Positions 1 to 1,038 of a DNA stretch of 57,499 bases are shown here, piece by piece. The first letter of the stretch is position 1; each line of letters opens with the position of its first letter. Origin of the DNA: Escherichia coli (lineage in GTDB: Bacteria; Pseudomonadota; Gammaproteobacteria; Enterobacterales; Enterobacteriaceae); the NCBI RefSeq assembly GCF_003334315.1, contig NZ_QOWR01000027.1; one strand, written 5' to 3'. Made by a program: the position numbers.

Positions 1-1038
1 GGTCTGACTCCAATTGAATATCGGAATCAGACCTATATGCCTCGTGTTTAACTGTCCAACTTTTTGGGGTCAGTACACGGTGAGGCGCAATGTTGCGGGG
101 GCTTTATCCCTGGTGGCATTGGTTGCTGGAAAGAGAAAACCCCCGCACGTTGAGAGGTAAAACCTGACAACAGAACGGGGGCTAATCTTGAAACCAGACA
201 CTTCAAGAATAGCCGCAAAATGTTGTCATTACAACAAGGCGGCTATATGACGCTCGCGCAGTTTGCCATGACTTTCTGGCACGACCTGGCGGCACCGATC
301 CTGGCGGGAATTATTACCGCAGCGATTGTCGGCTGGTGGCGTAACCGGAAGTAAGGTGAAAACGGGCGTCAGGCTGCCGTGATGGCAATATGCGCCCGAA
401 ACCGGCCGCAGGGGTAACAGCCTGCGGCCATTTTTGTCTTTATCACTTCCACAAGTAAATATTGGCAACCCGAGCTGGAAGCCTCATCCAGAGCACTCAT
501 GAAATGACTGTAACAGCTGTTGAAAAACCGGAATGCACTCTTCATTGCAAACATTTCAGGGATGAAGTGAAGATGAATTGAGTCGTAGTATCCACACCAA
601 GCCGGCGTTATCCGGTGAGGCGCAATGTTGCGGGGGCTTTATCCCTGGTGGCATTGGTTGCTGGAAAGAGAAAACCCCCGCACGTTGAGAGGTAAAACCT
701 GACAACAGAACGGGGGCTAATCTTGAAACCAGACACTTCAAGAATAGCCGCAAAATGTTGTCATTACAACAAGGCGGCTATATGACGCTCGCGCAGTTTG
801 CCATGACTTTCTGGCACGACCTGGCGGCACCGATCCTGGCGGGAATTATTACCGCAGCGATTGTCGGCTGGTGGCGTAACCGGAAGTAAGGTGAAAACGG
901 GCGTCAGGCTGCCGTGATGGCAATATGCGCCCGAAACCGGCCGCAGGGGTAACAGCCTGCGGCCTTTTTTGTATCCGGCACCCATAAAAAAGTCTTAACG
1001 CACAACGCTAAGACTTTATTTTTCAAACAAAAAGATTA

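What the first reader, a model, noticed from the sequence alone, without database searches (positions are those of the whole stretch)
1..1000. Tandem LDR units encoding identical Ldr toxins with Rdl antisense RNAs; array continues upstream of the window
Two 35-codon ldr genes 535 bp apart with identical roughly 350-bp cores, but a diverged spacer at 430-613. The first 78 bp look like the tail of a further unit, so the array copy number in this strain is not determinable from the window. This is a known type I toxin-antitoxin locus; of interest are copy-number differences between strains and the complete identity of the two toxin peptides.
Basis: partly seen in the sequence, partly recalled or inferred. 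Interest (0 to 1): 0.35.

Follow-up and report, generated by a model that had tools for sequence, protein, structure and literature searches.

The report
Ldr toxin repeats beside IS150
This is the well-known E. coli Ldr/Rdl small-toxin repeat next to kdsA; the sequence taken for a further repeat is the end of the mobile element IS150, sitting at a known insertion hot spot, and the perfect identity of the two toxin copies may be an assembly artefact.

Summary
Window 1-1035 is the kdsA-proximal end of the E. coli chaA-kdsA LDR array, a known type I toxin-antitoxin locus. The core observation holds. There are two identical 35-codon ldr genes (247-354, 782-889), both equal to K-12 LdrB. They sit in 352-bp cores that are 100% identical (78-429 = 613-964), each with an Rfam rdlD antisense RNA on the minus strand.

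Two details are wrong. Bases 1-77 are not an LDR tail. They are the right end of IS150, followed by a 3-bp CGG target duplication. The "diverged spacer" 430-612 is the promoter-bearing 5' part of unit 2.

IS150 lies about 17 nt into the inferred ldr transcript of unit 1. It cuts that toxin gene from its promoter and leaves rdl intact. About 69 of 5,426 complete E. coli genomes carry IS150 at this point, always in this orientation and in front of different units. The Lenski long-term evolution experiment (LTEE) hit the same nucleotides repeatedly.

The window appears to be a short-read contig, with an IS at both ends and exactly 77 nt of IS150. Every 77-mer of 78-1100 exists in close relatives that have three distinct units. 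So the copy number and the perfect identity may come from assembly collapse. Known biology; low to moderate interest.

The parts
1..77 (+). Right end of IS150 (IS3 family). It holds the last 16 codons and the stop (49-51) of the transposase and the terminal inverted repeat ending ...CAGTACA.
   Evidence: 100% identical to annotated IS150 copies in strain 300709 and others. Translates to GLTPIEYRNQTYMPRV*.
78..80 (.). CGG, one copy of the 3-bp target-site duplication made by IS150.
   Evidence: In strain 300709 the same IS is flanked by ...TCCGG|IS150|CGGTGAGG. The uninterrupted sequence is ...TCCGGTGAGG.
78..429 (+). LDR unit 1 core. It is cut from its promoter region by IS150 and is 100% identical to 613-964.
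   Evidence: It is identical to the middle-unit core of strains 300709 and PSS-13.
90..167 (+). 25-codon leader ORF in the ldr 5' UTR, with GAGG at 82-85. Its 3' half is covered by Rdl. It may be the 'ldrX' proposed in the literature. It repeats at 625-702.
   Evidence: ORF list. It is kept in frame in K-12 LDR-D. The ldrX proposal is cited in PMC4147584. The equation with ldrX is my inference.
134..199 (-). rdl antisense antitoxin RNA of unit 1. Its putative promoter is TTGTAA (234-229) and TATTCT (211-206) on the minus strand.
   Evidence: Rfam RF01813, 91.4 bits, full length. The promoter was read from the sequence and is an inference.
247..354 (+). ldr toxin gene of unit 1, 35 aa, identical to K-12 LdrB.
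   Evidence: Pfam PF13940 Ldr_toxin, E = 3.3e-26. PDB 5LBJ LdrD, E = 1.5e-10. Identical to the MG1655 ldrB product.
404..435 (+). Intrinsic terminator of ldr unit 1.
   Evidence: 9-bp GC-rich stem followed by a T run.
430..612 (+). It contains the putative ldr promoter (-10 TAGTAT at 586-591), the inferred transcription start at about 599-600, and the 5'-terminal hairpin at about 601-616.
   Evidence: Present in every unit of uninterrupted arrays. Conservation with LDR-D begins at the -10 element. The start site is inferred from the 136-bp RdlD/ldrD overlap in PMC7967276. The hairpin folds in all three variants.
613..964 (+). LDR unit 2 core. It contains the leader ORF 625-702, rdl 669-734 (minus strand), ldr 782-889 and the terminator 939-964.
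669..734 (-). rdl antisense antitoxin RNA of unit 2.
   Evidence: Rfam RF01813, 91.4 bits.
782..889 (+). ldr toxin gene of unit 2, identical to the unit 1 gene.
965..1035 (.). Unique flank between the array and kdsA.
   Evidence: Identical to the same flank in PSS-13 and 30EVA2.
1036..1890 (-). kdsA, the conserved neighbour that anchors the locus.
   Evidence: 284-aa ORF. Annotated as kdsA in all related genomes.

Best explanation
Window 1-1035 is the kdsA-proximal end of the E. coli chaA-kdsA LDR array. It holds two ldr/rdl type I toxin-antitoxin modules.

In each module a long, stable mRNA carries a leader ORF and the 35-aa membrane toxin Ldr. A 66-nt antisense RNA, Rdl, is made from the opposite strand of the 5' UTR and blocks toxin translation. 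This mechanism comes from the literature and was not tested here.

The window starts inside IS150. The element inserted with a 3-bp CGG duplication at the 3' foot of the hairpin that begins the ldr transcript, about 17 nt after the inferred start site. As a result:
- Module 1 has lost its promoter and 5' hairpin but keeps rdl and the rdl promoter. Its toxin gene is probably silenced, or expressed only by read-through from the IS.
- Module 2 (430-964) is complete.

The insertion point is a recurrent IS150 hot spot, seen both in natural isolates and in laboratory evolution.

The 100% identity of the two cores reflects either gene conversion between neighbouring units or collapse of a three-unit array by a short-read assembler.
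For: Identity of the locus:
- Pfam Ldr_toxin, E = 3.3e-26.
- Rfam rdlD matched twice, 91.4 bits each.
- Synteny and 98-100% identity with the annotated ldr arrays of MG1655, REL606, 30EVA2, 300709 and PSS-13.

IS150:
- Bases 1-77 are identical to annotated IS150 right ends.
- The junction with its target duplication was verified against strain 300709.

Promoter side:
- Conservation between LDR-A/B/C units and LDR-D starts at TCGTAG(T/A)ATC and continues through a hairpin with a variable loop.
- A published 136-bp RdlD/ldrD overlap places the transcription start 8 nt after that -10 element.

Hot spot:
- 69 of 5,426 genomes hold the IS150-LDR junction. At least two of them are at a second site, and none has the opposite orientation at the hairpin site.
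- IS150 stands in front of the first, middle or last unit in different strains. The duplication is 3 or 4 bp, and the left flanks match the unit position.
- LTEE populations carry IS150 at REL606 positions 1,270,660 and 1,270,663. The equivalent CCGG of the chaA-proximal unit lies at 1,270,660-663.
- ldrC structural variants are fixed in 63% of the populations examined.
Against: - The ldr transcription start is inferred, not measured for these units. The promoter scan found no consensus promoter anywhere in 1-1100.
- Silencing of module 1 is not shown. The transposase reads toward ldr with no obvious terminator in 1-77, so read-through expression is possible.
- The upstream half of the IS and whatever lies beyond it are outside the window.
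- The two-unit structure itself may not be real.
Confidence: 0.85

Rival explanations
1. The two identical units are an assembly artefact. The real genome has three slightly different units, as in PSS-13 or 300709. A de Bruijn graph assembler with k = 77 collapsed them into a loop and walked it once, giving core-spacer-core with identical cores.
For: - The window begins exactly 77 nt inside IS150 and ends inside IS1. This is typical of a short-read contig.
- Window 78-1035 equals C2+S2+C2+flank, built from exact PSS-13 pieces.
- Every 77-mer of window 78-1100 exists in PSS-13, TUM9803 and DAM. The 99-mers starting at 597-607 do not.
- No complete genome contains 78-1100 exactly.
- The same chimeric unit otherwise occurs only in four BL21-derivative assemblies that show a single unit, whereas REL606 has three.
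Against: - The finished genome of strain 102651 has two adjacent cores that are 100% identical and equal to the window's core. It differs from window 78-1100 at only 4 spacer positions. Such homogenised arrays therefore exist.
- Reads of 150 nt would span the 90-nt gap between the diagnostic sites 606/607 and 695, and should prevent the false join.
- The IS junction (3-bp duplication) differs from that of PSS-13 (4 bp), so the strain is not simply PSS-13.
Confidence: 0.5
2. One reading: bases 1-78 are the 3' tail of a further LDR unit, so the array continues directly upstream.
For: Many strains do have three units. In strain 300709 a third unit lies beyond the IS.
Against: - Bases 1-77 have no similarity to any part of an LDR unit.
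- They are 100% IS150, with its terminal repeat and the transposase stop codon.
Confidence: 0.02
3. IS150 does not silence the adjacent ldr gene but drives it, by read-through from the transposase gene or a hybrid outward promoter. The uniform orientation in nature would then reflect selection for this expression.
For: - At the hairpin site every natural copy has the transposase reading toward ldr, and none has the opposite orientation.
- There is no terminator-like site in 1-77.
Against: - No promoter-like site spans the junction.
- Authors of the evolution experiments read such insertions as inactivation of toxin-antitoxin systems.
- One LTEE allele in the opposite orientation was seen at the same position, so orientation is not dictated by the target.
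- Increased toxin expression would be costly.
Confidence: 0.15
4. The IS150 copies in front of different units descend from one insertion that was moved between units or strains by homologous recombination. They are not repeated insertions at a hot spot.
For: Most natural copies share the same 4-bp CCGG duplication and the same orientation. The units offer 183-352 bp of flanking homology for recombination.
Against: - The 10-40 nt directly left of the IS carry the position-specific variants of the first, middle or last spacer.
- Duplications of both 3 bp and 4 bp occur.
- Independent LTEE populations hit the same nucleotides de novo.
- A second site in the rdl loop was hit twice, in opposite orientations.
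Confidence: 0.1

Closest known systems
LDR-A/B/C (ldrA-rdlA, ldrB-rdlB, ldrC-rdlC) of E. coli K-12 between kdsA and chaA (Kawano et al. 2002, as cited in PMC4147584)
   Same: - Same chromosomal position and the same 535-bp unit.
- Both peptides are identical to K-12 LdrB.
- Rdl lies on the opposite strand of the 5' UTR.
- Same terminator.
- 98-99% nucleotide identity.
   Different: - K-12 has three distinct units and no IS.
- Here only two cores are visible, both of the LdrB type.
- The unit next to kdsA has a proximal-type 5' part and flank but a middle-type core at 9 diagnostic sites, 695-826.
- IS150 interrupts the array.
IS150 insertions at ldrC/chaA and ldrC/ldrB in laboratory evolution of E. 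coli B (LTEE: PMC4301190; anaerobic adaptation: PMC5419217)
   Same: - Same element, and the same nucleotides of the LDR unit. The REL606 insertions lie at 1,270,660 and 1,270,663, on or 3 nt from the CCGG duplicated in natural isolates.
- Recurrent and parallel.
   Different: - Those are de novo events in a B strain in the laboratory, at the chaA-proximal unit or between ldrC and ldrB. Here it is a natural isolate of a different lineage, 99.76% identical to REL606 over 30 kb.
- The LTEE shows both orientations. Natural genomes show only one at this site.
Chromosomal hok/sok loci of E. coli with IS150 inserted beside them
   Same: A type I toxin-antitoxin locus with a long structured toxin mRNA, and IS150 inserted beside it. 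Repeated de novo IS150 insertions at hokC/nhaA, hokE and mokB appear in the same experiments.
   Different: - A different toxin family (Hok, not Ldr/Fst).
- That K-12 hok loci are inactivated by nearby IS elements is my recollection of Pedersen and Gerdes 1999. It was not checked here.
Strain 102651 LDR array (NZ_CP189662.1)
   Same: A finished genome whose two kdsA-proximal cores are 100% identical to each other and to the window's core. It has only 4 differences from window 78-1100.
   Different: It has four units and no IS150. The spacer between the two identical cores carries middle-type alleles at 543, 583, 606 and 607.

Membership tests
Ldr/Rdl type I toxin-antitoxin (LDR) | 35-aa hydrophobic Ldr peptide | tested here: met
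   Pfam PF13940, full length 1-35, E = 3.3e-26. Identical to K-12 LdrB. Related to the solved LdrD structure 5LBJ, E = 1.5e-10. NCBIfam gave no hit.
Ldr/Rdl type I toxin-antitoxin (LDR) | cis-encoded antisense RNA (Rdl) opposite the 5' UTR of the toxin mRNA, not opposite the start codon | tested here: met
   Rfam RF01813 at 134-199 and 669-734 on the minus strand, 91.4 bits each, full model. Each lies 48 nt upstream of the ldr ATG.
Ldr/Rdl type I toxin-antitoxin (LDR) | Long direct repeat of about 530 bp, in tandem between chaA and kdsA | tested here: met
   Period of 535 bp with kdsA adjacent. Units of 467+535+535 bp in uninterrupted relatives. The chaA side is outside the window.
Ldr/Rdl type I toxin-antitoxin (LDR) | Each unit has its own promoter for a stable ldr mRNA | tested here: inconclusive
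   Unit 2 has the conserved -10 element and the inferred start site. In unit 1 that segment is replaced by IS150. No consensus promoter was found by the scan.
Ldr/Rdl type I toxin-antitoxin (LDR) | The peptide is toxic when overproduced, and Rdl counteracts it | not testable with these tools
   Known for LdrD/RdlD and LdrA from the literature.
IS150 (IS3 family) | Terminal inverted repeat TGTACTG.../...CAGTACA and a length of 1443 bp | tested here: met
   The right end is present at 1-77. Full 1443-bp copies with both ends sit at the same junction in 300709 and ten other genomes. Only 77 bp lie in the window.
IS150 (IS3 family) | Target-site duplication of 3-4 bp | tested here: met
   CGG in strain 300709, where the right junction is identical to the window. 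CCGG in nine other genomes. AAC and ACC at the second site. In the window only the right-hand copy can be seen.
IS150 (IS3 family) | Transposase made by programmed frameshift between two ORFs | not tested
   Annotated so in the related records. The window holds only the last 16 codons.

The most novel reading that the evidence does not exclude
The 5'-terminal hairpin of the ldr transcript unit, GCCGG-loop-CCGG followed by TGAGG, is a nucleotide-precise target for IS150. In nature it is also orientation-specific. Insertions there are repeatedly retained in wild E. coli because they uncouple an Ldr toxin from its promoter while keeping the Rdl antitoxin. That leaves an orphan antitoxin able to act in trans on the sister units. 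On this reading, the parallel ldrC mutations of the LTEE mirror a process that is also running in natural populations.
Probability: 0.4. Interest if true: 0.45.

Novelty: already known. Interest (0 to 1): 0.25.

Why it matters
Little is new at the level of the locus. The LDR array, its toxins and its antisense RNAs are textbook type I toxin-antitoxin biology, and copy number is known to vary.

Three points are worth keeping:
- It is a caution.
- The window's edge is a natural example of the IS150 insertion that arises in parallel in the LTEE, at the same nucleotides. Beneficial or hot-spot mutations seen in the laboratory can therefore also be found in wild genomes.
- If the insertion silences one toxin and spares its antitoxin, it offers a simple natural experiment on what chromosomal type I toxins cost their host.

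Tried and rejected
- NCBIfam scan of the 35-aa peptide gave no family. Pfam did.
- The consensus promoter scan of 1-1100 found nothing, not even for rdl or for ldr unit 2. It cannot be used for or against promoter loss.
- I looked for the experimentally mapped ldr transcription start. Kawano 2002 and 2012 and the Fozo 2008 review are not held, and several look-ups failed for lack of capacity. I had to infer the start from a 136-bp overlap figure in PMC7967276.
- I suspected an E. coli B origin, because BL21(RP) matched 430-1100 perfectly. That is rejected. REL606 is only 99.76% identical over 30 kb and has three normal units without an IS. The BL21-derivative records show a single collapsed unit next to nuoN.
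- I looked for an exact source genome and found none among 5,426 complete genomes. PSS-13 is the closest by flanks but has the IS in front of the first unit, with a 4-bp duplication.
- The 20-codon ORF 188-250, whose stop overlaps the ldr ATG (ATGA), is not the leader ORF. A 1-nt indel in LDR-D breaks its frame relative to ldr.
- Fold z-scores of the short 5' hairpin are not significant. Support for it rests on the stem being kept while the loop differs.
- A fuzzy-regex search for units timed out and was replaced by BLAST.

Full report
**What is in the sequence**

The region holds two ORFs of 35 codons, at 247-354 and 782-889 on the plus strand. Both encode MTLAQFAMTFWHDLAAPILAGIITAAIVGWWRNRK. 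Comparing the sequence with itself at an offset of 535 bp gives one uninterrupted identical run, 78-429 = 613-964. That is 352 bp at 100%, with only chance-level matches on either side.

Rfam's rdlD model (RF01813) matches the minus strand at 134-199 and 669-734. Each match covers the full model at 91.4 bits, against a gathering score of 50. GC-rich hairpins followed by T runs lie at 404-429 and 939-964. The next gene, 1036-1890 on the minus strand, is kdsA.

**Family and locus**

The peptide matches Pfam PF13940 (Ldr_toxin) over its full length, E = 3.3e-26. It also matches the solved LdrD structure 5LBJ, E = 1.5e-10. It is identical to LdrB of E. coli K-12.

All 5,426 complete E. coli genomes searched contain this region. 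The gene order chaA - ldr units - kdsA - sirB1 - sirB2 - prmC - prfA - hemA is the same as in MG1655 and REL606. This is the classical LDR array.

According to the literature, each unit makes a long, stable mRNA for the 35-aa membrane toxin and a roughly 60-nt antisense RNA, Rdl. Rdl overlaps the 5' UTR and prevents toxin synthesis, possibly by blocking a leader ORF called ldrX. A 25-codon ORF with a GAGG ribosome-binding site lies at 90-167 and again at 625-702. Its 3' half is covered by Rdl, and it stays in frame in LDR-D. I suggest, as an inference, that this is the proposed leader ORF.

**The first 77 bases are IS150, not an LDR tail**

Six complete genomes matched window 1-1100 end to end. 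In all of them the first 77 bases fall in an annotated IS150 transposase gene and its terminal repeat.

In strain 300709 the element is 1443 bp long. It is flanked by ...TTATCCGG|TGTACTGC...CAGTACA|CGGTGAGG, whereas the uninterrupted sequence is ...TTATCCGGTGAGG. CGG is therefore a 3-bp target duplication, and the right junction is identical to the window. Window 1-51 translates to the last 16 residues and the stop of the transposase.

The apparent start of the repeat at base 78 is thus only the place where the IS was inserted.

**The real repeat unit**

In arrays without an IS (30EVA2, MG1655, REL606) the unit is 535 bp. It consists of a 183-bp 5' part followed by the 352-bp core. The array is 467+535+535 bp and starts about 120 bp after chaA.

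Window 430-612 is the 5' part of unit 2, not a diverged spacer. The matching part of unit 1 lies on the other side of IS150. The sequence after 964 is the unique flank to kdsA.

**Where the IS sits in functional terms**

Aligned with the distant K-12 copy LDR-D, the units are unrelated upstream of TCGTAG(T/A)ATC. From there on they are almost identical. That element contains a -10-like hexamer: TAGTAT at 586-591 in the window, TAGAAT in LDR-D.

It is followed by GCCGG-loop-CCGGT. The stem is kept while the loop differs between variants:
- CGTTAT in the kdsA-proximal type
- AATTAT in the middle type
- AAAGGTT in LDR-D, where the stem is two pairs longer

All three fold as a hairpin, although such short folds are not statistically distinctive.

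A published RNA-seq study gives a 136-bp overlap between RdlD and the ldrD 5' UTR. This puts the ldrD start at the A that lies 8 nt after TAGAAT, which corresponds to window position 599-600.

IS150 therefore sits at about +17, at the 3' foot of the 5'-terminal hairpin. It separates the promoter and the first 17 nt from the rest of the ldr mRNA of unit 1. The rdl gene of that unit is untouched, as is its putative promoter (TTGTAA and TATTCT, 234-206 on the minus strand). Unit 2 is complete.

The positions are shown. The loss of toxin expression is inferred.

**A recurrent hot spot**

A 120-bp probe across the IS-LDR junction is covered in 69 of 5,426 genomes. At least two of these (the MSI001 type) are in fact at a second site. 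A probe for the opposite orientation at the hairpin site found none.

Twelve loci with the IS at the hairpin site were inspected:

| Position of IS150 | Strains | Target duplication |
|---|---|---|
| In front of the chaA-proximal unit | TUM9803, DAM, PSS-13, EC20 | CCGG |
| In front of a single remaining unit | AR_0061 | CCGG |
| In front of the middle unit | 300709; WS4437A-1 gave the same search matches but its locus was not inspected | CGG |
| In front of the kdsA-proximal unit | ECCTRSRTH03, Ecol_AZ147, ST540, STEC276 | CCGG |

The bases directly left of the IS carry the variants proper to each position. This argues for separate insertions rather than one insertion moved by recombination.

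A second site in the rdl loop was hit in MSI001 (TSD AAC) and, 1 nt away and in inverse orientation, in FAHZZU7007 (TSD ACC).

**This is already known from experimental evolution**

Deatherage et al. list ldrC among the genes hit in parallel in the LTEE. There were three structural-variant alleles by 1,000 generations, and variants were fixed in 63% of the populations examined at 20,000 generations or later.

Their supplementary table gives IS150 at REL606 positions 1,270,660 (-), 1,270,663 (-) and 1,270,663 (+). The CCGG of the chaA-proximal unit in REL606 is at 1,270,660-1,270,663. So the same nucleotides are involved.

Finn et al. report IS150 at chaA/ldrC and ldrC/ldrB, as well as at hok/sok loci. 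They read these insertions as inactivation of dispensable toxin-antitoxin systems.

I did not find a paper that describes the same insertion in natural isolates, or its relation to the ldr 5' hairpin. My literature search was limited.

**The identity of the two cores**

In related genomes the three cores differ. The middle and kdsA-proximal cores differ at 9 sites between 695 and 826.

In the window, the unit next to kdsA has the proximal-type 5' part and flank but a middle-type core. Window 78-1035 is exactly C2+S2+C2+flank of strain PSS-13. PSS-13 is the closest relative by flanks, with 1 mismatch in 965-4000 and 100.0% identity over 32500-57499. No complete genome contains 78-1100 exactly.

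Two readings fit.

- **Gene conversion of the last core by the middle one.** The finished genome of strain 102651 has four units, and its last two cores are identical to each other and to the window's core.
- **Assembly collapse.**
  - The window starts exactly 77 nt inside IS150 and ends inside IS1. This is what a short-read contig built with k = 77 looks like.
  - All 77-mers of 78-1100 are present in PSS-13, TUM9803 and DAM. The 99-mers starting at 597-607 are not.
  - Variable sites within the core are less than 77 nt apart, and so are those within the spacer. Each would therefore form one bubble, from which the assembler keeps a single real haplotype.
  - A collapsed tandem repeat walked once gives core-spacer-core.
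  - The same chimeric unit otherwise appears only in four BL21-derivative assemblies with a single unit, although REL606 has three normal units.

I rate the two readings about equal. Read mapping would decide.

**What lies upstream**

This cannot be settled from the window. The identical junction with a 3-bp duplication is found in 300709 and WS4437A-1. In 300709 a third unit and then chaA follow beyond the IS. By flanking sequence, however, the window is closer to PSS-13, TUM9803 and DAM, where chaA follows directly.

Copy number at this locus ranges from 1 to 4 in the genomes inspected: AR_0061 has 1; EC20, PCP07083 and TOE3 have 2; most have 3; 102651 has 4.

**Verdict**

The claim about the first 78 bases is wrong, and the two features singled out as interesting are not reliable in this kind of sequence.

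The IS150 junction is a natural counterpart of a well-documented laboratory hot spot. That is a modest point of interest and not a new kind of system.

Noticed in passing
window 57044-57499: The window ends inside an IS1 copy, 99.3% identical over 456 nt to an annotated IS1 in strain DAM. With the IS150 end at base 1, this suggests the window is a whole short-read contig bounded by repeats.
   Followed up: partly
window 39348-39426 (minus strand): Full-length match to the sRNA family C0299 (RF00119), 112.5 bits.
   Followed up: no
L006 (MSI001) 3135-4577; L012 (FAHZZU7007) 4145-5587: A second IS150 insertion site lies in the loop of the rdl hairpin, equivalent to about window 160-166. It was hit 1 nt apart in opposite orientations (TSDs AAC and ACC). 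These insertions disrupt the antitoxin RNA gene and the ldr 5' UTR. H59 (NZ_OZ547450.1) gave the same two-piece match as MSI001 but was not inspected.
   Followed up: partly
L002 (BL21(RP), NZ_CP084683.1) 3911-4646: Four BL21-derivative records show a single LDR unit. In BL21(RP), the one locus inspected, that unit is preceded by only 40 bp of another core and lies directly after nuoN. REL606 has three units next to chaA. This is either a large rearrangement with a breakpoint in the array or a misassembly.
   Followed up: partly
L013 (DAM) 1858-4077: The IS150 in front of the LDR array is 2220 bp long. An annotated IS1 transposase gene lies inside it, so one IS is nested in another.
   Followed up: no
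L019 (strain 102651) 1283-2960: A four-unit LDR array whose peptides come in two identical pairs (WP_000170965 twice, WP_000170963 twice). The first two ldr genes are 500 bp apart instead of 535, which suggests a unit with a 35-bp deletion.
   Followed up: partly
window 220-354 and 755-889: An in-frame ATG 27 nt upstream of each annotated ldr start would give a 44-aa product (MLSLQQGGY + Ldr). It lies within the putative rdl promoter region. I did not test whether it is used.
   Followed up: no
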